The position numbers were made by a program, and so were the translations under genes. From Candidatus Kaiserbacteria bacterium (GTDB lineage: Bacteria; Patescibacteriota; Minisyncoccia; Phycocordibacterales; JABAAK01), in NCBI GenBank assembly GCA_028820405.1, contig JAPPJI010000021.1:2770-66769 (forward strand): a stretch of 64,000 bases of DNA, written 5' to 3'. Numbering within the stretch: the stretch's first letter is position 1; each line of letters opens with the position of its first letter. The notes beneath the pieces are model-generated. The model made no database searches. It was not told the origin of the DNA and saw only the letters and a list, made by a program, of their open reading frames with translations. This document shows positions 3,826 to 56,409 of the stretch, one piece after another.

Positions 3826-5164
3826 TTCTGTTTCTATCCCGCGGGAACATAGATGCCTCTTTTGCGTTCTGCAGTCCGCAGAGTTTCGCCGTCAGCCGCT
3901 CAAGCCCCATTCCCATACCGCCGTGCGGCGGCATACCGTACCGAAACGCCTGGAGGTAGAAGGAGAACACGGTCTCAGGGTCGGCAATGCCGGTCTTTTT
4001 CGTGATCTTCTCAATAAGTGTGCTGTAGTCGTGGATACGCTGTCCGCCGGTGCTGATCTCAATCCCCCGGAACAGGAGATCAAATCCTTTGGTATATCCC
4101 GGATCATCTGCATCATCGTAGGTGTACATCGGTCGGGTTTCTGTCGGATAGTGGGTGATGAAAATGAAATCAGATCCCGTCTCTTTCTGTGCGTGCTCGC
4201 AGAGCACCCGCTCATGTTCCGGTGCAAGATCTTTCTCCCCTTCACACGATATGCCGTACTTCTCGGACAACAGGACCTGTGCCTCCGTCAGCTTCATGCT
4301 CGGAAACGGTGTCTCCGGAACGATCGGCAACGATGCCTCCAGCACTGTCAGATGGTTCTTGCACCGATCCGCAACCTGCCGCACGATGTGCCGGACACAT
4401 CCTTCAAGCATCGCCTGCACATCAGTGTGATCGGTAATGTACCCCATCTCAAAGTCCATGCTGGTGTACTCGTTGAGGTGACGGGACGTGCTGTGCTTCT
4501 CTGCACGAAAGACGTTTCCGACAGAAAACACCCGTTCAAACGCACCGACGAGAATCTGCTTGTATAGCTGCGGACTTGTCGCAAGTGATGCCCGCTTGTC
4601 AAAGTAATCAACACCGAATACCTCGGCACCGCCTTCTGCGTCACCTCCGACGATAGCCGGTGCCTGAAACTCCATGAACCCTTCCCCGGAGAGGTACTCA
4701 CGAAATGCCTGTGCAACCGACATCTGCACGCGAAAAACTGCCTGTTCACGACTTCTTCGCAGAGTCAGGGGACGATAGTCAAAGAGGGTATCGATATTGA
4801 TGTCCGCATCGCGATCAAACGGAAGGGTTTGTGCTGCTGCTGATTGAGAGAAGGAGGAGACGAGAATCTCAAGAGCACCGTTGTCCCCGTCAGACCGGTT
4901 TTTCTCAGAACGATCCTGCACCGCCCCGGTCACCATGAGAATACTCTCCGGCGTCAGCTTTTGGGCTTCAGCAAATTGCGGGTGATCCCCCTTCAGGACA
5001 CACTGCACTGATCCGGTCCTGTCGGCAAGGTCAATAAAAAGCACCTTGCCGTGGTCCCGGACAACGAGCACTTTCCCCCATACGGTCACTTCCGACCCAT
5101 TGTGCTCCCGCACCTGCCGCAACAGACATCGCTCCATATGGGCGCAGTATATCACACCGAACAC
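3800..5164 (-). CDS. aspS: aspartate--tRNA ligase, archaeal/non-discriminating type (class IIb). AsnRS cannot be fully excluded.
   Basis: 454 aa. N-terminal OB fold, FRAE...SRHLNEYT (motif 2), GGQRIH and GMPPHGGMGMGLERL (motif 3). The length fits archaeal-type AspRS. GatB is in the same window. The start may be the internal Met at 5137. Confidence 0.75.
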   Translation of the reverse strand: MFGVIYCAHMERCLLRQVREHNGSEVTVWGKVLVVRDHGKVLFIDLADRTGSVQCVLKGDHPQFAEAQKLTPESILMVTGAVQDRSEKNRSDGDNGALEILVSSFSQSAAAQTLPFDRDADINIDTLFDYRPLTLRRSREQAVFRVQMSVAQAFREYLSGEGFMEFQAPAIVGGDAEGGAEVFGVDYFDKRASLATSPQLYKQILVGAFERVFSVGNVFRAEKHSTSRHLNEYTSMDFEMGYITDHTDVQAMLEGCVRHIVRQVADRCKNHLTVLEASLPIVPETPFPSMKLTEAQVLLSEKYGISCEGEKDLAPEHERVLCEHAQKETGSDFIFITHYPTETRPMYTYDDADDPGYTKGFDLLFRGIEISTGGQRIHDYSTLIEKITKKTGIADPETVFSFYLQAFRYGMPPHGGMGMGLERLTAKLCGLQNAKEASMFPRDRNRIDVKLYDE

Positions 5165-5224
5165 TCACCGCTGTCAATGCCTGAGAACGTACCGAAAACA
5201 TCGCAACCCTGTATACTGCACAGA

Positions 5225-5821
5225 ATGGATAACCGTGTCACACTACTGGAAGATGAAATTGTCACCCGGGTACAAACGGCCCGATATATGCTCGAAAAAT
5301 TGGGAAAGCCGTGTGATTCACTGAAACTCATCAAGCTTATTGCCCTTGCTGATATCTACAAGCTACGGCTTGAGGGTGAAACGATAACGGGAGATGATTA
5401 TGTTGCCATGAAAAACGGACCCGCACCGTCCAACACTTCTAACATCATCAGGTTTAACAGTGACTATGTGGACGGCGATACACTGACGTATGCAGGAAAC
5501 TACATAGAAAAGCACAACACCACTATCTCAGCAAAAGAGGGTGACGTAGCATATGACTACCTGTCTGATTTCGATAAGAAGTGTATTGATTACGTGGTAG
5601 AGAAATATGGCAACTTATCTGCATCTGACCTCACAGACGGAAATGGCGGAGAAAACGTACATGCATTTGAGGCATGGAAGAAACATGATATTCGTGCCTT
5701 TGGTCCCGGACAGGTTGCACCGATACACATGGAAGACTTTTTTACAAATGACGGTCCGGTTCAGGTAGATGAGGCTGACATAGAACGGTCAAGAGAGAGA
5801 TACCTTCATGGCAACCTTTGA
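5225..5821 (+). CDS. Panacea-domain (DUF4065, SocA/GepA-like) putative antitoxin
   Basis: The LKLIKLIALADIYKLRLEGETITGDDYVAMKNGPAPS pattern matches the DUF4065 core (KLxKLLYxAD...G.PxxGxxxxAxxxGPV). The start was chosen at the internal ATG at 5225. The ORF track starts at 5051. Confidence 0.7.
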   Translation: MDNRVTLLEDEIVTRVQTARYMLEKLGKPCDSLKLIKLIALADIYKLRLEGETITGDDYVAMKNGPAPSNTSNIIRFNSDYVDGDTLTYAGNYIEKHNTTISAKEGDVAYDYLSDFDKKCIDYVVEKYGNLSASDLTDGNGGENVHAFEAWKKHDIRAFGPGQVAPIHMEDFFTNDGPVQVDEADIERSRERYLHGNL

Positions 5822-6221
5822 AAAACGAGACATCGCATACTATCTCAGCTCCAAAATAAAAAAGAACAAAGAAGGGAGAAAAGAGAGGCATTACCACATT
5901 TTGTGTGCTCAATTTACGGACCGCTCCGGGTATGTCTGGTTGCAGATTATCGGAACGAGCAAGGAGATAGAAAATAACAATGAAAATGTTATTGTCATTG
6001 AACCGTCTATGTGTAACGCATTCACCAAAAGAACACGGTTCAACTGTGACTATGTTTATGCAATCCAAGAAGAGGAGTTGCAAGGTGCGAGCATACGAGG
6101 TAGGGTGCCAGAAAATGTATTTGAAACCCTAAAACAGGCGATCGGGAGATCGAACAAAGTGAAGCCGATTTACAAAAAAAGGATGAACATAGTGTGCCAT
6201 GGGCACAGTACATCACGATAA
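5808..6221 (+). CDS. candidate toxin partner of the Panacea antitoxin (137 aa). Weak MazF/PemK-like pattern.
   Basis: It overlaps the upstream Panacea gene by 14 nt in a toxin-downstream arrangement. The pattern HILCAQFTDRSG...VIVIEPSM...CDYVYAIQEEEL loosely resembles the MazF/CcdB SH3-barrel layout. Inference only. Confidence 0.4.
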   Translation: MATFEKRDIAYYLSSKIKKNKEGRKERHYHILCAQFTDRSGYVWLQIIGTSKEIENNNENVIVIEPSMCNAFTKRTRFNCDYVYAIQEEELQGASIRGRVPENVFETLKQAIGRSNKVKPIYKKRMNIVCHGHSTSR

Positions 6222-18962: not shown

Positions 18963-18974
18963 CTCACCCCCTAA
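18963..18974. repeat. left copy of a ~12-bp imperfect direct repeat (CTCACCCCCTAA) flanking the AT-rich island
   Basis: Seen in the sequence. The right copy CTCACCCCCCTA lies at 22641-22652. Each copy overlaps the stop codon of a minus-strand gene (KAP NTPase, rpoC). Confidence 0.3.
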
Positions 18975-20346
18975 CACTTGGTATGCTATCACCATGAAAT
19001 TCCTCAATGTATAAAAGCAATACATCCTTGAATGTTTTTAGAACCTCTCCTTCGTGTATTACATCACCTCCCTTTATGCTTAATTCTCCTTCACGAACGA
19101 CCAACCCTTCAATGTGCCTACCTTTAAGCAAACGTGGCAGAAATGGTGCCTTGTGGGACAGGTTTACTGCTGACACAATGAACTTACAGTGGTCTCTCAA
19201 ACCATCAAACATATCACTCTGACCATATTTATTATCAACTATGGGTTCACAATCGTTAGAAAGAGATTGCTTTATAGCGTCAACTAAAGCTTTCTTTGAT
19301 CCGACAGTCTTTATTAAAAAAGACACAGTTCTTTTCATGGGTCTTCCGTATTCCCTCTCTTCAATCATAGAGAACCCTGAACTATTTCTTTTTTGTGAAT
19401 ACTGTAGCGTCCCCAACCCATTGAGGACCTGTCGCAAGTTTATGATATTTTTTCTGAAGAAGTTTTTCAAAAGGAATAATGACAACCAGACACTTATATA
19501 TTGACCTGTTTTATCTGTCACTTGTTTATTTGGTTGTGGGCCAAAAACGGTACCCATATATTCAGCAATAATACCTTTCGGGTCATACTCAAAAACTTCC
19601 TTGCTGTAAAATTTATCAAGATACCCTTGTGAATCTGTGCCAGCACCATATTTGTGGTGAAAGATTGATCGTAGGTTATTATAGTCCGCTACAAAAATTA
19701 CGTGATCAAAACCAAGCCTTTTAGCAACTGTCTTCTCCTCATCCTCGCCAACAAATAAAGAAAATACATTAAATAGTCTGAAAATATGTTCGGGATCAAG
19801 TCGATCCATATCATCAATAACCAAAACTTTCTTCTTTTCTTTCCCCGCAACTTTGCACAACATTTTTCTGATTTTTTCTTCAGTAATCGTCCCAAAAGAT
19901 TCTTTTATCTCTTCAATCGCAGCAACTATGAAATTCGCAATTGGATTGACCCTCCCCAGCAAAGATGCGGTTTTCCACCCTATCTTTACCAACTTTTTCA
20001 TTTTTGATTTTTCCTTGTGCCCTGACAAGGGTCCTTTTTCTCCACCTTGTTCCATAATAGATATCATCAAGTCTTCCTTCATGGTTTCTATCAGTACCTC
20101 ACTTCCCACTATTTGATAAGCTGTGGGGCGAAGACGTACCCAAAAGTAATATTCCTCATACTGCTTAAAAAACCTCTCGATAAAAAACGTCTTCCCTATA
20201 CCAAATTTGCCAGAAAACAAGATTCTACTGTTTCTCAACATCTCCAAATGATGTTTAAAATGATCAAACAAGGGATCTATCGGTATTATCATACCGCTTC
20301 CAACCAACCCGTCTTGGGATTCTTTAGGATCTTTTGTTACATCCAT
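18964..20346 (-). CDS. KAP-family P-loop NTPase
   Basis: Walker A SGKFGIGKTFF. The Walker B context KVLVIDDMDRLDPEHIF matches the KAP signature (hhhhIDDLDRxxP). AT-rich codon usage unlike the flanking genes. Confidence 0.7.
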   Translation of the reverse strand: MDVTKDPKESQDGLVGSGMIIPIDPLFDHFKHHLEMLRNSRILFSGKFGIGKTFFIERFFKQYEEYYFWVRLRPTAYQIVGSEVLIETMKEDLMISIMEQGGEKGPLSGHKEKSKMKKLVKIGWKTASLLGRVNPIANFIVAAIEEIKESFGTITEEKIRKMLCKVAGKEKKKVLVIDDMDRLDPEHIFRLFNVFSLFVGEDEEKTVAKRLGFDHVIFVADYNNLRSIFHHKYGAGTDSQGYLDKFYSKEVFEYDPKGIIAEYMGTVFGPQPNKQVTDKTGQYISVWLSLFLLKNFFRKNIINLRQVLNGLGTLQYSQKRNSSGFSMIEEREYGRPMKRTVSFLIKTVGSKKALVDAIKQSLSNDCEPIVDNKYGQSDMFDGLRDHCKFIVSAVNLSHKAPFLPRLLKGRHIEGLVVREGELSIKGGDVIHEGEVLKTFKDVLLLYIEEFHGDSIPSVRG

Positions 20347-20461
20347 ACACTAATCACATGATAGTGTAATAACGATATGGAGCACAAGTCAAGACATTGA
20401 CCGACAGTTTCCGATCACTATTCATTTGTAGCCGTGCAAGGAGGTTATACTGAATATAAGC

Positions 20462-21541
20462 ATGGTCACCAAAAGCCTAAACAAGGGATTGCATACTGCA
20501 AAGAGAGAAAAGAAAGATGAGTTCTATACCCAACTTACTGATATTGAAAAAGAGCTGAAACATTACAAAGATCAGTTTCGTAATAAAGTTGTGTATTGTA
20601 ATTGCGATGACCCTTATGAAAGTAATTTTTTTAAATATTTTTCTCTCAGTTTCAACCACTTGGGGTTAAAAAAGCTTATCACCACGAGTTACAAACCATC
20701 ACCAATTACTGGCAAACAATTGCCTTTGGTTGAAATTGAAGGATTAAAGCCAGAAGGCAAAGAACCTTTCAAACTTGAGATCAATGAAGTTTTAGACAAT
20801 AACAAAGATGGTGCTGTTGACTTAACAGATGTTGAGTGGCTATTGAAGAATGATGCGAACACCGCCACACCACTTGATAGTGACGGTGATTTTCGCAGTG
20901 AAGAATGTGTAGAATTTCTCAAAGAAGCAGATGTTGTTGTAACGAACCCTCCTTTTTCACTTTTTCGCGAGTACCTTGCTCAGTTGATGGAGTATGATAA
21001 GAAGTTTTTAATCATTGGAAACATCAACGCCATCACGTACAAAGAGACATTTCCGTTAATCCAGAAAAACAAGGTATGGCTTGGAGTAAGCATCCATAGC
21101 GGAGATCGTGAATTCAGAGTTCCTGACCACTACCCTCTAGAGGCTGCCGGGTATCGTGTTGATGACGAAGGCAACAAATACATTCGCATAAAAGGTGTTC
21201 GATGGTTTACAAATCTTGACACAGAAAAGCGGCACGAAAGTCTTGTTTTGTACAAGAAGTACACCCCCGAGGAGTTTCCAAAATATGACAACTATGATGC
21301 CATAAATGTAAATAAAACCTCTGACATCCCGATGGATTATGCTGATGCAATGGGTGTGCCGATCACTTTTTTGGACAAACACAACCCCGATCAATTTGAG
21401 ATAGTAAATTCAAATAATGTAAGGTTAAGCGAAAAAGTTCCGACCAAAGACTCGGGACTTATCAAAGACAAAGAAAGTGCAATAAACGGCAAGCCGACCT
21501 ATGTTCGAGTTGTCATAAAAAACAAGGAGGTGACAAAATAA
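20462..21541 (+). CDS. N6-adenine DNA methyltransferase, M.EcoRI-like (EcoRI_methylase family)
   Basis: The SDEFYTQ N-terminal motif, VVYCNCDDP, FFKYFSLxFxxLGLKKLI, VVTNPPFSLFREYL (NPPF motif IV), DKKFLIIGNINAITYKE and YPKYDNYDAINVNKTxDIP are all as recalled for M.EcoRI. AT-rich. Confidence 0.8.
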   Translation: MVTKSLNKGLHTAKREKKDEFYTQLTDIEKELKHYKDQFRNKVVYCNCDDPYESNFFKYFSLSFNHLGLKKLITTSYKPSPITGKQLPLVEIEGLKPEGKEPFKLEINEVLDNNKDGAVDLTDVEWLLKNDANTATPLDSDGDFRSEECVEFLKEADVVVTNPPFSLFREYLAQLMEYDKKFLIIGNINAITYKETFPLIQKNKVWLGVSIHSGDREFRVPDHYPLEAAGYRVDDEGNKYIRIKGVRWFTNLDTEKRHESLVLYKKYTPEEFPKYDNYDAINVNKTSDIPMDYADAMGVPITFLDKHNPDQFEIVNSNNVRLSEKVPTKDSGLIKDKESAINGKPTYVRVVIKNKEVTK

Positions 21542-21542
21542 C

Positions 21543-22637
21543 ATGAAAATAGAACTCAAAAGAATTCCTGTTCGTGAGGCAGTTAATGGCTACAAAGATA
21601 ATGCCGAGGAGGGTGTTACGGCATACGGCGGCAAACTTGATGTTCGCCCAAAATACCAACGCGAGTTTGTTTATGACGACAGACAGCGTGATGCGGTAAT
21701 TGAAACAATCAAACAAGATTTTCCGCTTAATGTGATGTACTGGATGACAAAAGATGACGGAATTAATTACGAAATGATTGACGGTCAACAGCGAACTATC
21801 AGTATTGGTCAGTATGTGAGTGGTAATTTTGCACTTGCTAATCGTTTTTTCTATAACCTCACAAAAGAAGAGCAGAATCAGATCCTTGACTACGAGCTCA
21901 TGATTTACTTCTGCGAAGGAACAGACAAAGAACGTTTAGATTGGTTTAAGGTTATCAACATCGCCGGTGAAAAACTGACCGATCAAGAAATACGGAATGC
22001 GGTATATACCGGACCATGGCTTTCTGATGCAAAATTGAAATTCAGTAAAACGAGCTGTGCAGCGTACAAATTAGCAAACGACGGAGGAACACTTTTGAAC
22101 GGTGAATTAAACAGACAGCACTACCTAGAAACCGCCCTCTCTTGGATTAATCATGGAGAAATAGATGGTTACATGGCAAAGCATCAGCACGAACCAAACG
22201 CAAACAACCTATGGAGTTACTTTCAAGATGTGATCATGTGGGTTCGCAAGACATTCCCAAAATATCGAAAAGAAATGAGAGGTGTGAATTGGGGCGGGCT
22301 GCACAACGAATCTAAAGACAAAAAATTGGATGCTGAGAAACTAGAAACTGAGGTTGCTCAATTAATGCAAGATGAAGATGTAACAAGAAGGTCGGGCATT
22401 TACCCTTATGTCCTCACAAGAGATGAGAGACACCTCCAAATACGTGCGTTTACCGACAACATGAAACGAGAAGTATATGAGGAACAAGAGGGAATCTGCA
22501 AAAAATGTGAAGAACAATTCCCATTCGAAGAAATGGAGGCTGACCACATTAAGCCGTGGCACGAAGGCGGCAAAACGACCTCAGAAAATTGTCAGATGTT
22601 GTGCAAGGATTGCAATCGGAGAAAATCCGGAAAATAA
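21543..22637 (+). CDS. DUF262 (ParB/Srx-like, DGQQR motif) + C-terminal HNH nuclease fusion (COG1479/GmrSD-related)
   Basis: YQREFVY and IDGQQRTISIGQY DUF262 signatures. C-terminal CKKCEEQ...ADHIKPWHEGGKTTSENCQMLCKDCNRRK is a canonical zinc-finger HNH. The start codon lies 1 nt after the MTase stop. Confidence 0.8.
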   Translation: MKIELKRIPVREAVNGYKDNAEEGVTAYGGKLDVRPKYQREFVYDDRQRDAVIETIKQDFPLNVMYWMTKDDGINYEMIDGQQRTISIGQYVSGNFALANRFFYNLTKEEQNQILDYELMIYFCEGTDKERLDWFKVINIAGEKLTDQEIRNAVYTGPWLSDAKLKFSKTSCAAYKLANDGGTLLNGELNRQHYLETALSWINHGEIDGYMAKHQHEPNANNLWSYFQDVIMWVRKTFPKYRKEMRGVNWGGLHNESKDKKLDAEKLETEVAQLMQDEDVTRRSGIYPYVLTRDERHLQIRAFTDNMKREVYEEQEGICKKCEEQFPFEEMEADHIKPWHEGGKTTSENCQMLCKDCNRRKSGK

Positions 22638-51679: not shown

Positions 51680-52645
51680 CTACCGCCGCTTTGAGCCGGA
51701 AACTCTTCGAATGATTTCTTTTCCCACCTTCATGACTGAATCGTCATCAAGCACTGTCAGGGTTAACGTGCCCGGCGGCAGTGCACGCAATTTTTCCTGC
51801 ACCGCAGACTCGCTCACGGTATCAGTCTTTGAGAGCACAACCATCTCTTCCTTTTTTCCAAGATCGCGGCGATATGCACTGAGCTCACCCCGAACGGTCT
51901 GGTACGCACCCGCAACATCTTCTTCCGCTGACACAAGATGGACGAGTACCTTCGTGCGTGAGATATGTTTCAAAAATGAATGACCCAGCCCTTTCCCTTC
52001 AGAGGCATGCTCAATGATACCGGGGATGTCGGCAAGCGTGTAACCGTTGTAGACACCGAGGTTCGGGTCCAGCGTGGTAAACGGGTACGCACCGACACCT
52101 GCACGTGCATTGGTGAGGGCGTTGAGGAACGATGACTTCCCTGCATTTGGCAAACCGATGATGCCTGCTTCCGCAATCATGTTCAGTTCGATGAAAAACG
52201 TATACGATTGGGGCTCCTGTCCGCTCGTTGCCGTCATCGGCGTTGTGTTCCGAGAACTCTTAAAATGTGCATTGCCGAGACCGCCGGCTCCGCCGGATGC
52301 CACCAGCACCTTTTCTCCTTCCTCAAGGAGTTCAAACGTCTCGCGAGTCACCGTATTTGTAACAATGGATCCGATCGGCACGGATACAACGAGATCAGAA
52401 CCATTTTTCCCGGACTGCAGATTGCCGCTGCCGTCCGTACCGTTCTCTGCCTGCATTACCTTTCTTTCTGCATATCGACCCAGGGCAAAAATATCACGAA
52501 CCGTCTGAACATAGACGTCGCCGCCACGACCGCCATTCCCGCCGTCCGGTCCTCCTTTGGGAACGTACTTTCTTCTCAGCCAGTGGACACTCCCGTCGCC
52601 GCCACGACCGCCCGACAGTGTCAATGTTCTCTCGTCAACCAACAT
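51680..52645 (-). CDS. obg: GTPase Obg
   Basis: Gly-rich Obg fold (KGGPDGGNGGRGGDVY). G-domain motifs (GLPNAGKSSFLNALT, DIPG). Confidence 0.9.
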   Translation of the reverse strand: MLVDERTLTLSGGRGGDGSVHWLRRKYVPKGGPDGGNGGRGGDVYVQTVRDIFALGRYAERKVMQAENGTDGSGNLQSGKNGSDLVVSVPIGSIVTNTVTRETFELLEEGEKVLVASGGAGGLGNAHFKSSRNTTPMTATSGQEPQSYTFFIELNMIAEAGIIGLPNAGKSSFLNALTNARAGVGAYPFTTLDPNLGVYNGYTLADIPGIIEHASEGKGLGHSFLKHISRTKVLVHLVSAEEDVAGAYQTVRGELSAYRRDLGKKEEMVVLSKTDTVSESAVQEKLRALPPGTLTLTVLDDDSVMKVGKEIIRRVSGSKRR

Positions 52646-52649
52646 ACCG

Positions 52650-53024
52650 TTATCGCATTACTTTTCGTAATATCCCAAGCATGCCACCGAGAAGAACTCC
52701 GTGCAACCACGAGGTAACTATGAATGGATCAAAGAAATGTGCAATGGTGTAGACAATACCGACAGAGAGAGCGATGGAGGTGAGACCGAAGGTGATGAGA
52801 CGAAGCGGTGTGAGGAGTACCTTGAGAACAGGATGAATGGCAATATCAATGATAACAACAATAATGGTGAGGAAAAGAAATGAGGCAACATAGTCGTATC
52901 CGTCTCCGGTCAATGAAATACCGCTGAGGTAGTGCAAACCTGCATACAGAACCGCACCGGTTAAAAGGAGGCGGAACAGAATTCTTTGCACGAGACCACC
53001 AAGCATAGGTGCAGTATATCGCAC
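52650..53024 (-). CDS. 4-TM membrane protein resembling the PF04020 'phage holin 4_2' family
   Basis: 124 aa. The pattern VIIDIAIHPVLKVLLTPLRLITFGLTSIALSVGIVYTIAHFF resembles the PF04020 consensus. Its start abuts the stop of the RelE-like ORF. Confidence 0.45.
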   Translation of the reverse strand: MRYTAPMLGGLVQRILFRLLLTGAVLYAGLHYLSGISLTGDGYDYVASFLFLTIIVVIIDIAIHPVLKVLLTPLRLITFGLTSIALSVGIVYTIAHFFDPFIVTSWLHGVLLGGMLGILRKVMR

Positions 53025-53468
53025 CTATCGCCTCACCTTGTTTGTTTCAAGGTGATTTTCAGTGATGGCAACGACATAGAACACCCTCTTACTCTCAATA
53101 CTAAAATGAAAAATCCGTGACTTTCCTTGCAGTTTGATCTCTTTCAAGTCAACATCATCAGGAAGTCCGCTGAAGAGCTTTTTATACTCACCATCCCGCC
53201 TCACCGGCTTATACTGCAATGAGTATTTTTGATAATCAGCCGGCGATCGAATTTCTGTCCCAACCTTTTTGAGAACCTCAAGAGTTTTTTTTGCCTTGTT
53301 CCCTTTCAAAACGGAGAGGTTGCCCACCTTATCGTTATACGTCGCAAATGAAATAACATACGGCATTGCCTCCGGTGCTTCCGTTTCCTGAGAGACCTCG
53401 TTAACTTTTTGAGGAATCTTTATACGTCCACCAGCCGTTTTCGTTACCGGTCTCGGAATACTTGACAT
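53025..53468 (-). CDS. candidate toxin with RelE/ParE-like pattern, partner of the upstream Panacea antitoxin
   Basis: The C-terminal LQGKSRIFHFSIESKRVFYVVAITENH resembles the RelE/ParE core (G..YRIRVGDYRIIY...V.IL.IGHR). The real start may be the internal ATG near 53366, giving 114 aa. Confidence 0.4.
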   Translation of the reverse strand: MSSIPRPVTKTAGGRIKIPQKVNEVSQETEAPEAMPYVISFATYNDKVGNLSVLKGNKAKKTLEVLKKVGTEIRSPADYQKYSLQYKPVRRDGEYKKLFSGLPDDVDLKEIKLQGKSRIFHFSIESKRVFYVVAITENHLETNKVRR

Positions 53469-53474
53469 TGACCG

Positions 53475-53972
53475 TTATTTTACTGCCAACCCTTCCATCT
53501 TTGCGGTATAGAAAGCTTTCATGTCTCTGCGAGGTATCTCCCTGTCCGAGATCTCATGCTCATTAAGACCGTTTCTTGCATCCTGCCACGGCTTCTCTGA
53601 GTGGGTAAGGAATTCCAGGTACGCAGCATCAAACGAACCGTACACATCCCACACCTCGTCGATAACGTGCTTGCCTTTGGGAGGAATGCTGATACTTTTT
53701 TCATCAACTACTTCATCTATCGGATCAAACCCATACCGCTTATACCGCAAATACAAACTTCGCACCGCCGGACCATGAACCCACGCCTCGATAGGATCAT
53801 TGAAAAGTTTTTTCCCGTTCAATACGAGAGACCACGCCTGAGAATAGTACACGAGCTTTTGCAGCTTCTTGTTCGTTAATGGTTTCTTCTCTGCTCCCGC
53901 ACGATAGATAAGGTATCGTCCAACATCAAGAGCGGTGACTGTTTTTCTTTGCGTACCCATACTTAGATACAC
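53475..53972 (-). CDS. Panacea-domain (DUF4065, SocA-like) putative antitoxin
   Basis: KLQKLVYYSQAWSLVLNGKKLFNDPIEAWVHGPAVRSLYLRYKRYG matches the DUF4065 core. Confidence 0.7.
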   Translation of the reverse strand: MYLSMGTQRKTVTALDVGRYLIYRAGAEKKPLTNKKLQKLVYYSQAWSLVLNGKKLFNDPIEAWVHGPAVRSLYLRYKRYGFDPIDEVVDEKSISIPPKGKHVIDEVWDVYGSFDAAYLEFLTHSEKPWQDARNGLNEHEISDREIPRRDMKAFYTAKMEGLAVK

Positions 53973-54014
53973 TCTGCCTGATTCGTAAGGAAAAAGAAAG
54001 GATCGATGCAGAAC

Positions 54015-56288
54015 TTACTCCTCCGCCACTTTCGCAACACTTTGCAATGACTCCTTCACCTTCTCTTTCACGTGATCCCAGAATCCCTGGAACAGACGGG
54101 CACCTTCCCGCTTGTACTCCATCAACGGTTCACGCTGTCCGTACGATCGCAAGTTTGCACTGCTCCGTGCGTAGTCCATCAATTCCAAGTGTTCCATCCA
54201 TGCAACGTCAATACTGCGAAGCACCGCACGACGAAGCGTCTCTGTCGGCACTGCTTCTCCGTTTTCTCCGACAAGATCGTCACGAGAAAAAAAGTCAGCG
54301 AGCACACCTTGGTCATCAGTGAGAAGCATTGATCGGCGTTTTTTGTATACCTCAGACCGATGTTTATCGAGCACCGTATCATACTCAAGACTGAACCGAC
54401 GCGAATCAAAGTGGTGCCCTTCAATACGTTTCTGTGCACTTTCAATCGACTTTGATATCATCTTATTCTGTATCGCCTGGTCTTCCGGAAGACCCATCTT
54501 CTGTGCAACAGAACGAATCCTGTCAGATCCGAAGATGCGTGCCAGGTCATCCTCAAGAGAAATGAAGAACTGTGTCTCACCCTCATCACCCTGCCGTCCG
54601 CAGCGACCGCGAAGCTGATCATCAATACGACGTGACTCATGCCGTTCGGTACCGAGCACAAAGAGTCCGCCCAACTTTTTGATATCTTCAGGACGATCAG
54701 CACCGTCCGCACCGCCAAGCTTAATGTCCACACCACGACCGGCGAGGTTCGTTGCAATCGTCACCATCCCGCGACGGCCCGCCTGTGCGATAACCTCTCC
54801 TTCCTGTTCATGATTTTTTGCATTCAGCACTTCATGCGGCACTTTCTTCTTTTTGAGCCGCTTTGAGATCTCTTCACTGTGATCAATAGATGTTGTCCCG
54901 ACCAGCACCGGCTGCCCTTTTTCGTGGAGCTCCTGTATTTTTTTCACCGCCGCACGGAGTTTCGCCGGTCTCGTCGAATAAATAACATCGGAGTGATCAA
55001 CCCGCTGCACCGGTTTGTTTGTCGGAATTGAGAGCACCGGCACTTTGTACACTTTGTAGAACTCTTCTTCTGAAGAGAGGGCGGTTCCGGTCATCCCTGC
55101 GAGCTTATCGTACATGCGAAAGTAGTTTTGAAAGGTTATTGACGCATAGGTTCGTGTCTCCTGCTGCACCTTGACCCCCTCTTTCGCCTCAATAGCCTGG
55201 TGCAACCCTTCACTCCATTGCCGTCCCGGCTGCAGCCGTCCCGTGAACTCGTCGACGATAACGATGGATCCGTCCCGAACAACGTACTGTCGATCTTTGG
55301 TAAAGAGAGATTTTGCCTTGAGGGCATTCTGAAGGTAGTGAACCGCACGCTGCGATCCTTCAACGTATACGTTCTCTACCTTGAGAATACGCTCAAACTT
55401 TTGTATACCGTCCGGTGTCAATGATACCGCACGCTGTTTCTCATCAATGGTATAGTCTTTTTCTTCCTCAAGTGTGTCCGCAAATGTCGCAAACTGTGTG
55501 TAGTGGGAAGCGGGTATCTCAACCGGACTTGATATGATAAGCGGGCTTCGTGCTTCGTCAATGAGAATGGAGTCCACTTCGTCAACAATTGCAAAGTGAA
55601 ACCCCCGATGACGAATGTTATCTTTCTCGTACTCAATGTTGTCTCTGAGGTAGTCAAAGACAAACTCGTTGTTCGTACCGTACACAATGTCTGATGCATA
55701 CACATCCTTTCGGGGTACGTCCCGCAAAAACTCATGCACCACTTTATACGCTCCTTCTTCATCACGCTCTTTGTCGTGGTCACGGTGGTCCGGGTCATAT
55801 CGATACGACTGGTTCTGACTGTTCACGACACCGACGGTCATGCCGAGAAAGGAAAATACCTGCCCCATCCATACCGCATCACGACGGGCAAGGTAGTCAT
55901 TAACGGTCACGATGTGCACAGAATTGCCGGACAGTGCATTGAGGTACGCAGGAAGCACTGCAACGAGTGTTTTTCCCTCACCGGTCCGCATTTCTGCAAT
56001 TGATCCGTTGTGAATTGCCATGCCGCCAATGACTTGCACATTAAACGGATCCATGCCCGTTGTTCGCCGAGCGGCCTCACAGACAACTGCAAATGCCTCT
56101 TCGAGAATACTATCAAGCGTTGCACCGCCTTTTACTGCCACACGAAAATCATCAGTTTTCTTCCGTAGTGCGTCATCCGACTCTTTAGCGAGTTCTTTCC
56201 GGCGAGATTCAATAGCTGCAACGGATGCTTTCACCCGACGCACGTACCGTTTTGATTCCGTTCCGAGGATGAAATCAAGGAGAGCCAT
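54015..56288 (-). CDS. secA: preprotein translocase ATPase SecA
   Basis: DEAD-like motor (MRTGEGKTLVAVL, DEVDSILIDEARSPLIIS), preprotein cross-linking domain and C-terminal helical scaffold. The start is set at MALLDF (~56288). Confidence 0.95.
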   Translation of the reverse strand: MALLDFILGTESKRYVRRVKASVAAIESRRKELAKESDDALRKKTDDFRVAVKGGATLDSILEEAFAVVCEAARRTTGMDPFNVQVIGGMAIHNGSIAEMRTGEGKTLVAVLPAYLNALSGNSVHIVTVNDYLARRDAVWMGQVFSFLGMTVGVVNSQNQSYRYDPDHRDHDKERDEEGAYKVVHEFLRDVPRKDVYASDIVYGTNNEFVFDYLRDNIEYEKDNIRHRGFHFAIVDEVDSILIDEARSPLIISSPVEIPASHYTQFATFADTLEEEKDYTIDEKQRAVSLTPDGIQKFERILKVENVYVEGSQRAVHYLQNALKAKSLFTKDRQYVVRDGSIVIVDEFTGRLQPGRQWSEGLHQAIEAKEGVKVQQETRTYASITFQNYFRMYDKLAGMTGTALSSEEEFYKVYKVPVLSIPTNKPVQRVDHSDVIYSTRPAKLRAAVKKIQELHEKGQPVLVGTTSIDHSEEISKRLKKKKVPHEVLNAKNHEQEGEVIAQAGRRGMVTIATNLAGRGVDIKLGGADGADRPEDIKKLGGLFVLGTERHESRRIDDQLRGRCGRQGDEGETQFFISLEDDLARIFGSDRIRSVAQKMGLPEDQAIQNKMISKSIESAQKRIEGHHFDSRRFSLEYDTVLDKHRSEVYKKRRSMLLTDDQGVLADFFSRDDLVGENGEAVPTETLRRAVLRSIDVAWMEHLELMDYARSSANLRSYGQREPLMEYKREGARLFQGFWDHVKEKVKESLQSVAKVAEE

Positions 56289-56409
56289 ATACGAGATATA
56301 TAGTATATGCGGTACACGCTCCTGTACACCCCTGCAAGACAAAAACACCCGCACATGGGTGTTTTTGCCAACCGTCGCATGCGACGATTTGTAAAAGAAC
56401 GTCCTACAC

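What the first reader, a model, noticed from the sequence alone, without database searches (positions are those of the whole stretch)
52650..53972. Second Panacea cassette: Panacea antitoxin - RelE/ParE-like ORF - holin-like (PF04020-type) membrane protein, in-line upstream of obg
Three short genes sit between secA and obg on the same strand. The first has the DUF4065 core (KLQKLVYYSQAWSLVLNGKKLFNDPIEAWVHGP). The second is a 114-147-aa protein whose C-terminus looks RelE/ParE-like. The third is a 4-TM PF04020-like (putative holin family) protein whose start abuts the second gene's stop. Either the RelE-like protein or the membrane protein, or both, could be the toxic partner, giving a tripartite Panacea module. 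Two independent Panacea systems in 64 kb is notable for a small genome.
Basis: partly seen in the sequence, partly recalled or inferred. Interest (0 to 1): 0.65.

Follow-up and report, generated by a model that had tools for sequence, protein, structure and literature searches.

The report
Two-gene Panacea / RelE-like toxin insert
A two-gene toxin-antitoxin-type insert (a Panacea-domain antitoxin plus a RelE-shaped probable toxin) sits between secA and obg in a small Kaiserbacteria genome; it is a divergent member of an already catalogued family, and the 'holin-like' third gene is only a resident neighbour.

Summary
All three minus-strand ORFs are real. They are a Panacea/DUF4065 protein (PF13274, E 5e-19), a 147-aa protein with no family hit, and a PF04020 membrane protein (E 7e-9).

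The tripartite reading fails.
- In the closest relative the order is secA-PF04020-obg, with no Panacea pair.
- In 45 of 46 non-redundant homologous loci the 147-aa gene directly follows a Panacea gene. None of the 46 has PF04020 downstream.

The module is bipartite, about 1 kb, and inserted upstream of a resident PF04020-obg pair. The two partners co-diverge (Mantel r 0.60), and a natural Panacea-toxin fusion exists.

The toxin family holds at least 317 clusters at 50% identity, mostly Patescibacteria. Profile-profile comparison (92.7%, E 4e-7) links it to the largest published PanA-associated toxin cluster, T1 of Kurata et al. 2022, which those authors class as 'mRNase', and to NCBIfam 'MAG6450 family'.

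Verdict: a new, divergent member of a known kind. Toxicity and mechanism are inferred, not shown.

The parts
53973..54014 (-). Spacer between the secA stop codon and panA. It holds no recognisable promoter or operator.
   Evidence: There is no sigma70-like site on the minus strand. The upstream motif TTTACTTTAGTTTACA and the -10 box seen in most relatives are absent here. GC is 0.43.
53475..53972 (-). panA, a standalone Panacea (DUF4065) antitoxin-type protein. It is about 161 aa from the ATG at 53960, with no extra N-terminal domain.
   Evidence: PF13274 E 5.2e-19, residues 37-130. phrog_1281 E 1.5e-45. 42% identity to the DUF4065 protein of Salmonella phage Emek. The N-terminal alignment with 40 orthologues supports the ATG start.
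53364..53468 (-). N-terminal extension of the toxin-like protein (residues 1-35). It is low-confidence, probably disordered, and carries short conserved motifs.
   Evidence: pLDDT is 64-68 for residues 1-30. Conservation across 136 sequences: M1 96%, I4-P5 70-81%, I18-P19 65-76%, E33 77%. Canonical RelE, YoeB and HigB toxins of 84-103 aa lack this region.
53025..53363 (-). RelE/ParE-fold core of the toxin-like protein (residues 36-147 plus the stop codon).
52650..53024 (-). PF04020 4-TM membrane protein. It is a resident neighbour and NOT part of the module. Its probable true start is the ATG at 53006.
   Evidence: PF04020 E 7.2e-9. Its only non-self homologue, P0189 (60% identity), lies between secA and obg in a 728-kb contig that lacks the pair. 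A conserved GATATACTG lies just upstream of the ATG in both genomes.

Best explanation
The feature is a bipartite PanA-PanT (Panacea antitoxin / toxin) module of about 1 kb. It was acquired horizontally and inserted between secA and a pre-existing PF04020-obg gene pair.

Shown:
- The two genes are an almost obligate, co-diverging pair across Patescibacteria and a few other phyla.
- They are sometimes fused into one polypeptide.
- The second protein has a RelE-superfamily fold.
- It is distantly homologous to the published PanT cluster T1 and to the NCBIfam 'MAG6450 family'.

Inferred:
- The 147-aa protein is a growth-arresting toxin. Most likely it is a ribosome-dependent mRNA endonuclease that uses the near-invariant E110, R118 and H139 (with Y95 and Y44).
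- The standalone Panacea protein neutralises it by direct binding. The contact may be through the toxin's conserved, disordered 35-residue N-terminal extension, as Ernits et al. 2023 predicted for another standalone-Panacea pair.
- In this genome the pair has lost the promoter region seen in relatives. It is probably transcribed by read-through from secA and continues into PF04020-obg.
For: Pair conservation:
- 45 of 46 non-redundant loci have a Panacea ORF ending -38 to +10 nt from the toxin start. The commonest arrangement is a 4-nt overlap. The single exception is cut by a contig end.
- Four of four distant family members sampled also follow a PF13274 gene.
- The flanking genes differ in every context.
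- Co-divergence: Mantel r 0.60, with 0 of 2000 permutations reaching it.
- The natural fusion P0085 appears in two independent assemblies.

Insertion:
- L010 has LTD-secA-PF04020-obg-gatB-GAPDH, with SecA 80%, Obg 75% and GAPDH 83% identity, and contains neither panA nor the toxin.
- The pair's GC is 0.45 against 0.50 for the window.

Fold.

Weak sequence link: Pfam Gp49, a HigB-like family, is the top recurring sub-threshold hit, in 5 members with best E 0.0066.

Homology to T1: hhalign of A2 against A3 gives 92.7%, E 4.2e-7, over 101 columns. A3 includes Emek gp16, which Kurata's Dataset S1 lists as T1.

Literature:
- T1 is classed 'mRNase', and the C. cadaveris T1 member is toxic in E. coli (PMC8832971).
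- Standalone Panacea neutralises directly and is predicted to contact the toxin's unstructured N-terminus (PMC10440598).
Against: - No toxicity or neutralisation has been shown for this family.
- Among T1 relatives tested by Kurata et al., none was validated as a TA pair. C. cadaveris was toxic but not rescued by its PanA. E. coli MOD1 and phage Emek were not toxic in E. coli.
- There is no significant sequence match to any RelE/ParE Pfam or PDB entry. Alignments to E. coli RelE and YoeB are not significant (E 0.07-0.9), so the catalytic-residue mapping is only suggestive.
- The window protein has G where 96% of the family has C49.
- No promoter or operator was found upstream in the window.
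Confidence: 0.7

Rival explanations
1. Tripartite module. The PF04020 'holin-like' membrane protein is a second toxin or effector controlled by PanA, or an accessory third component.
For: The genes are tightly packed on one strand. The toxin's stop codon abuts a possible GTG start preceded by GGTGAGG. Membrane-disrupting PanT toxins exist (PMC8832971). The pair probably lacks its own promoter here, so co-transcription is likely.
Against: - The closest relative has secA-PF04020-obg with no pair.
- None of the 46 homologous pairs has a PF04020 homologue. The downstream genes examined by Pfam are unrelated: hydrolase, APH, methylase, phosphatase, peptidase, DUF7670 and Transgly_assoc.
- Homology and the NCBI gene call place the PF04020 start 18 nt downstream of the toxin stop.
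- Kurata et al. found that accessory third genes are sporadic and unlikely to act in toxicity.
Confidence: 0.04
2. The pair is real, but the 147-aa protein is not a classical self-poisoning toxin. It could be a phage-defence effector that a Panacea 'sensor' holds inactive until infection. It could also be a catalytically diverged RelE-fold protein with a regulatory or non-toxic role.
For: - Two of three T1 relatives tested were non-toxic in E. coli, and the toxic one was not neutralised.
- Relatives sit in defence or mobile contexts: AbiEii, Fic, resolvase, methylase, RmuC, and next to tRNA genes.
- PanA homologues are common in prophages.
- The near-invariant residue set (Y44, C49, Y95, E110, R118, H139) does not match any one RelE subfamily.
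Against: - No member of the close family was found in viral contigs or phage genomes.
- The 4-nt overlapping two-gene architecture, the co-divergence and the occasional frameshifted toxin copies are what classical TA pairs show.
- A defence role and a TA mechanism are not mutually exclusive.
Confidence: 0.2
3. The toxin acts like ParE, poisoning DNA gyrase, rather than like RelE, YoeB or HigB, which cleave mRNA.
Against: - The near-invariant Glu, Arg and His lie on beta2, on beta3 and just after beta4, where RelE-type nucleases carry catalytic residues. Which residues are catalytic in RelE and YoeB is my own knowledge.
- Kurata et al. class the related T1 cluster as mRNase.
Confidence: 0.08

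Closest known systems
PanAT systems with toxin cluster T1 (Kurata et al. 2022, PNAS, PMC8832971). Examples are Salmonella phage Emek gp15/gp16, the M. agalactiae 5632 pair and the C. cadaveris pair.
   Same: - The PanA is a standalone Panacea protein ('noNTD') encoded first, followed after a small gap or overlap by a toxin-like protein of about 135-160 aa.
- That protein has an unstructured N-terminus, an 'FSF...C' first strand and a C-terminal beta-sheet ending in a conserved His.
- Profile-profile homology is 92.7%, E 4e-7.
- The window's PanA is 42% identical to Emek's PanA.
   Different: - The relationship is only distant. Phage T1 proteins score 5-13 bits against the window family's HMM.
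- The conserved residue sets differ. T1-like proteins keep W66, G78, E80, R105, D127, Y133 and H135. This family keeps Y44, C49, Y95, E110, R118 and H139.
- The window family is almost confined to Patescibacteria MAGs. No Parcubacteria or Kaiserbacteria entries appear in the held text of Dataset S1, which was cut when stored.
NCBIfam NF046006 'MAG6450 family protein' (Mollicutes; uncharacterised)
   Same: - 22 of 136 family members and the T1-like proteins match it over the full 103-position model, with E down to 1e-6 to 1e-7.
- MAG6450 lies next to MAG6440, annotated 'putative prophage protein ps3'. That label is attached to Panacea genes in two phage records.
   Different: - All matches fall below the curated 40-bit cut-off.
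- The window protein itself gives no match.
- That MAG6440 is a Panacea protein, and that it is orthologous to the 5632 pair, is inferred and was not tested.
Classical type II RelBE, YefM-YoeB, HigBA and DinJ-YafQ modules
   Different: - The antitoxin is a globular Panacea domain, not a RelB, Phd/YefM or HTH protein.
- The toxin is about 60 residues longer. It has a 35-residue N-terminal extension and an extra beta-alpha insertion at residues 86-99.
- It has no significant sequence similarity to these toxins.
MqsR-PanA (B. fungorum) and other PanA-associated RelE-like clusters (T14, T28) in Kurata's Dataset S1
   Same: Panacea-containing antitoxins are paired with RelE-superfamily nucleases.
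   Different: In those systems the PanA carries HTH or ZBD N-terminal domains that do the neutralising. Here the PanA is Panacea only. The T14 rows for Saccharibacteria list HTH-PanA.

Membership tests
Panacea / PanA antitoxin (PF13274, DUF4065) | Panacea domain scoring above the Pfam gathering threshold | tested here: met
   69.7 bits against a cut-off of 25.7, E 5.2e-19, residues 37-130.
Panacea / PanA antitoxin (PF13274, DUF4065) | [quoted passage not shown] | tested here: met
   The gap is 6 nt in the window. 45 of 46 non-redundant loci from many candidate phyla keep the pair.
Panacea / PanA antitoxin (PF13274, DUF4065) | Binds and neutralises the partner's toxicity | not testable with these tools
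   This needs co-expression and pull-down experiments. The only indirect support is the co-divergence and the natural fusion.
RelE/ParE toxin superfamily | The compact alpha/beta fold: beta1, two helices, then a three-stranded antiparallel sheet | tested here: met
   [not shown]
RelE/ParE toxin superfamily | A sequence-profile match to a clan member at the curated threshold | tested here: not met
   No Pfam or NCBIfam hit for the window protein. Only sub-threshold Gp49 hits in 5 of 136 relatives. PDB profile searches were negative.
RelE/ParE toxin superfamily | Catalytic residues of the mRNase subfamilies in equivalent positions | tested here: inconclusive
   E110, R118 and H139 are near-invariant. 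R118 aligns with RelE R61 and YoeB R65, and H139 with YoeB H83, but only in non-significant alignments. No structural superposition was available.
RelE/ParE toxin superfamily | Ribosome-dependent mRNA cleavage, or gyrase poisoning | not testable with these tools
   This requires a biochemical assay.
PanT cluster T1 / NCBIfam MAG6450 family | Homology to T1 members | tested here: met
   hhalign of A2 against A3 (which includes Emek gp16, a T1 member) gives 92.7%, E 4.2e-7, over 101 columns.
PanT cluster T1 / NCBIfam MAG6450 family | NF046006 score above the curated cut-off of 40 bits | tested here: not met
   The window protein has no hit at E up to 1. Relatives and T1-like proteins reach 14-31 bits.
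Tripartite TA module with PF04020 as a component | The third gene is conserved with the pair in other genomes | tested here: not met
   0 of 46 loci. PF04020 is present without the pair at the syntenic site in L010.
Phage holin (PF04020 'Phage_holin_4_2') | Pfam domain above the threshold | tested here: met
   36.6 bits against a cut-off of 28.8.
Phage holin (PF04020 'Phage_holin_4_2') | A lysis-cassette or prophage context | tested here: not met
   It lies between secA and obg in two genomes, with no phage genes nearby. It has no PHROG hit.

The most novel reading that the evidence does not exclude
The Patescibacteria branch may be a distinct enzymatic subtype of RelE-fold effector. It has its own near-invariant residue set (Y44, C49, Y95, E110, R118, H139) and a conserved disordered N-terminal 'handle' that a domain-only Panacea protein reads. 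In this Kaiserbacteria genome the pair has lost its own promoter and become embedded in the secA-PF04020-obg transcription unit. Toxin and antitoxin supply would then be tied to expression of essential growth genes, which would be a lineage-specific regulatory co-option.
Probability: 0.1. Interest if true: 0.5.

Novelty: new member of a known kind. Interest (0 to 1): 0.28.

Why it matters
- It corrects a tempting over-reading. Tight gene packing in a streamlined CPR genome does not make an operon a functional module.
- It assigns a fold and a family link to an unannotated protein family of at least 317 clusters at 50% identity, found almost always behind a Panacea gene in Patescibacteria.
- It connects that family to the largest, still unvalidated, PanA-associated toxin cluster (T1, the MAG6450 family).
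- It gives concrete targets for testing how a standalone Panacea domain neutralises a RelE-fold toxin: E110, R118, H139, and the 35-residue N-terminal extension.
- It opens no new category.

Tried and rejected
- Direct family assignment of the 147-aa protein gave nothing. I tried Pfam, NCBIfam, PHROGs, PADLOC, and PDB by phmmer and hmmsearch.
- The search for related loci with the PF04020 protein found nothing in genome contigs. With A2 it failed for lack of conserved stretches.
- Viral contigs and phage genomes hold no close relative of the toxin.
- hhalign of A2 against single E. coli RelE and YoeB sequences was not significant.
- I found no flanking direct or inverted repeats, no target-site duplication, and no minus-strand promoter or terminator at the insert.
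- The partner of the window's other Panacea gene (137 aa) is unrelated to A2 and A3 and has no PDB or Pfam hit.
- The apparent extension of window/L010 DNA homology into the last toxin codons (AAGGTGAGGCGATAGGT) is too weak to interpret.

Full report
**The observation**

On the minus strand the window encodes, in order:
- secA, 54015-56354
- a 165-aa ORF, 53475-53972
- a 147-aa ORF, 53025-53468
- a 124-aa ORF, 52650-53024
- obg, 51680-52645

Pfam confirms SecA and Obg. It assigns the first short ORF to SocA_Panacea (PF13274, E 5.2e-19) and the third to PF04020 (E 7.2e-9). Both scores exceed the gathering thresholds.

The middle ORF has no hit in Pfam, NCBIfam, PADLOC, PHROGs or PDB sequences. 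P0001, identical to the window's 147-aa protein, comes from a Candidatus Kaiserbacteria MAG.

A second Panacea gene sits at 5051-5821(+), PF13274 E 9e-17. It is only about 31% identical to the first over 62 residues. It overlaps an unrelated 137-aa ORF.

**The middle protein**

A first search found 38 homologues, all about 147 aa and all from Patescibacteria. They align from residue 1, so the long ORF is the real gene.

A profile search of 1.84 billion representatives found 317 clusters at E up to 1e-3, and 173 at E up to 1e-10. Nearly all are 135-175 aa.

A model built on a 136-sequence alignment (A2) was confident: pLDDT 88.7, pTM 0.75, and above 93 from residue 31 onward.

Foldseek agrees. 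Its best hit is 1wmi_A (E 1e-3, probability 1.00, TM 0.70), followed by RelE, YoeB and HigB2.

At sequence level the only recurring hint is sub-threshold Pfam Gp49, a HigB-like family, in 5 of 136 members.

Across the deep family the near-invariant residues are Y44, C49, Y95, E110, R118, F120 and H139. The window protein has G at position 49. E110 lies on beta2, R118 on beta3, and H139 just after beta4. In non-significant alignments R118 matches RelE R61 and YoeB R65, and H139 matches YoeB H83 (the RelE and YoeB sequences were verified). This suggests a nuclease active site but does not prove one.

Residues 1-35 are a low-confidence extension with short conserved motifs. Canonical RelE toxins lack this region.

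**Is the module two genes or three?**

I examined homologous loci from genome, metagenome and assembly collections.
- Of 46 non-redundant loci, 45 have a Panacea ORF ending -38 to +10 nt from the toxin start. The commonest arrangement is a 4-nt overlap. The one exception is truncated by a contig end.
- Four distant members, with profile E between 1e-12 and 1e-23, also follow a PF13274 gene.
- PanA and toxin identities co-vary: Mantel r 0.60, with 0 of 2000 permutations reaching it.
- One cluster, P0085, is a single 306-aa Panacea-toxin fusion seen in two independent assemblies.
- No locus contains a homologue of the window's PF04020 protein. The downstream same-strand genes I scanned are unrelated enzymes or other small membrane proteins.

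The result for the PF04020 protein is decisive. Its only non-self homologue, P0189 (60% identity), lies in a 728-kb contig with the order LTD-secA-PF04020-obg-gatB-GAPDH. Identities to the window proteins are SecA 80%, Obg 75%, GatB 71% and GAPDH 83%. That locus contains neither panA nor the toxin.

PF04020 is therefore a resident gene. The Panacea pair is an insert of about 1 kb just upstream of it. The pair's lower GC (0.45 against 0.50 for the window) fits acquisition from elsewhere.

Homology between the two genomes resumes at GATATACTG, just before the ATG at 53006. NCBI also uses that ATG as the PF04020 start. The 'abutting start' is thus probably an artefact of the longest-ORF rule.

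**Regulation**

In relatives, 32 of 40 upstream regions carry a TAnnnT box ending 3-12 nt before the panA ATG. The background rate is 35%. The box often follows TTTACA at 17 nt, which implies an own promoter and a nearly leaderless mRNA.

Twelve of the 40 also carry TTTACTTTAGTTTACA at -69 to -89.

The window has neither element, and no sigma70-like site on the minus strand. Read-through from secA is the likely source of transcription here. This is inferred.

**Comparison with known systems**

Kurata et al. 2022 (PMC8832971) defined Panacea antitoxins. They listed MqsR-like, ParE, PemK and other partners, and several untested RelE-like or HigB-like clusters.

Their largest cluster, T1, has 217 rows in the held text, with PanA lacking an N-terminal domain and antitoxin-first gene order. 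It includes M. agalactiae 5632, C. cadaveris, E. coli MOD1 and Salmonella phage Emek. Their SI table labels the two tested T1 members listed there, C. cadaveris and E. coli MOD1, 'mRNase'. The test results were:
- C. cadaveris: toxic, but not neutralised by its PanA
- E. coli MOD1: not toxic
- phage Emek gp16: not toxic

NCBIfam 'MAG6450 family' (NF046006) matches 22 of 136 members of the window's family below threshold. It also matches T1-like proteins below threshold. MAG6450 lies next to a gene annotated 'prophage ps3 protein'. That label is attached to Panacea genes in two phage records.

I built a T1-like alignment (A3) from the Pseudomonas phage CF60a partner, Emek gp16 and 41 homologues. 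Profile-profile comparison with A2 gives 92.7% probability, E 4.2e-7, over 101 columns. The window's toxin family is therefore a divergent branch of an already catalogued, though functionally unvalidated, PanT superfamily.

Ernits et al. 2023 (PMC10440598) showed that standalone Panacea neutralises its toxin directly. They predicted contact with the unstructured N-terminus of one toxin. That motivates, but does not prove, the idea that the N-terminal extension here is a binding handle.

**Verdict**

The best explanation is a horizontally inserted bipartite PanAT module whose toxin is probably a RelE-type mRNA endonuclease. My confidence is high that the pair is a real module, moderate that the partner is toxic, and lower for the exact mechanism.

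Having two Panacea loci is not unusual. Kurata et al. found 217 taxa with two.

Novelty: a new member of a known kind. Interest is modest.

Noticed in passing
window 5051-6221 (+): This is the 'first' Panacea cassette. It has a Panacea gene (PF13274 E 9e-17) overlapping a 137-aa ORF by 14 nt, and sits between an aspS/asnS-like gene and trpS in a lower-GC stretch (0.42-0.47). The 137-aa partner has no Pfam or PDB hit and is unrelated to the RelE-fold family (A2, A3).
   Followed up: partly
window 18964-22637: A low-GC islet (0.375-0.41, against 0.50 for the window) encodes a KAP-family P-loop NTPase, an EcoRI-type adenine methyltransferase (E 2e-151) and a GmrSD_N + HNH endonuclease. It looks like a horizontally acquired restriction or defence island.
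   Followed up: partly
L001, L005, L011, L021, L029, L032, L036, L044, L047, L054, L056, L067: 69-89 nt upstream of panA: A conserved 16-nt motif, TTTACTTTAGTTTACA (tandem ACTTT-like pentamers), occurs upstream of panA in 12 of 40 relatives. A TTTACA-N17-TACTAT promoter follows, ending 6-10 nt before the ATG, which implies a near-leaderless mRNA. The window has neither. The motif could be an operator, but its function is unknown.
   Followed up: partly
L008 3387-3459 and L019 2371-2444: tRNA-Asn and tRNA-Thr genes end 60-67 nt upstream of panA in two relatives. This suggests the pair often lands in tRNA-adjacent integration hot spots.
   Followed up: no
L026 3001-3443, L048 2054-2497, L072 1696-2138: The toxin gene is split into two overlapping or adjacent ORFs by a frameshift or stop in three loci, two of them Ignavibacteria-type, while panA is intact. 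These could be toxin pseudogenes or assembly errors.
   Followed up: no
L076 3001-3921 and L077 2102-3022 (protein P0085): A natural single-polypeptide fusion of Panacea (residues 34-128) with the RelE-fold domain (residues 199-306), present in two independent assemblies. It would make a ready-made single-chain model of the complex.
   Followed up: partly
window 53322-53324 (codon 49 of the 147-aa ORF): The window protein has Gly where 96% of the family has Cys49. P0038 is the only other Gly among the 28 close homologues in A1. Whether this affects activity is unknown.
   Followed up: no
window 53033-53055: A 7-8-bp inverted repeat (CACCTTG ... CAAGGTG) lies within the last codons of the toxin gene. 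The scan scored it as terminator-like only on the plus strand. On the coding strand it has no T-tract.
   Followed up: no
window 53007-53015 and L010 8058-8066: GATATACTG, which contains a TATACT -10-like hexamer, is conserved 6 nt upstream of the PF04020 ATG in both Kaiserbacteria genomes. PF04020-obg may have its own promoter and a leaderless transcript.
   Followed up: no
[not shown]
   Followed up: no
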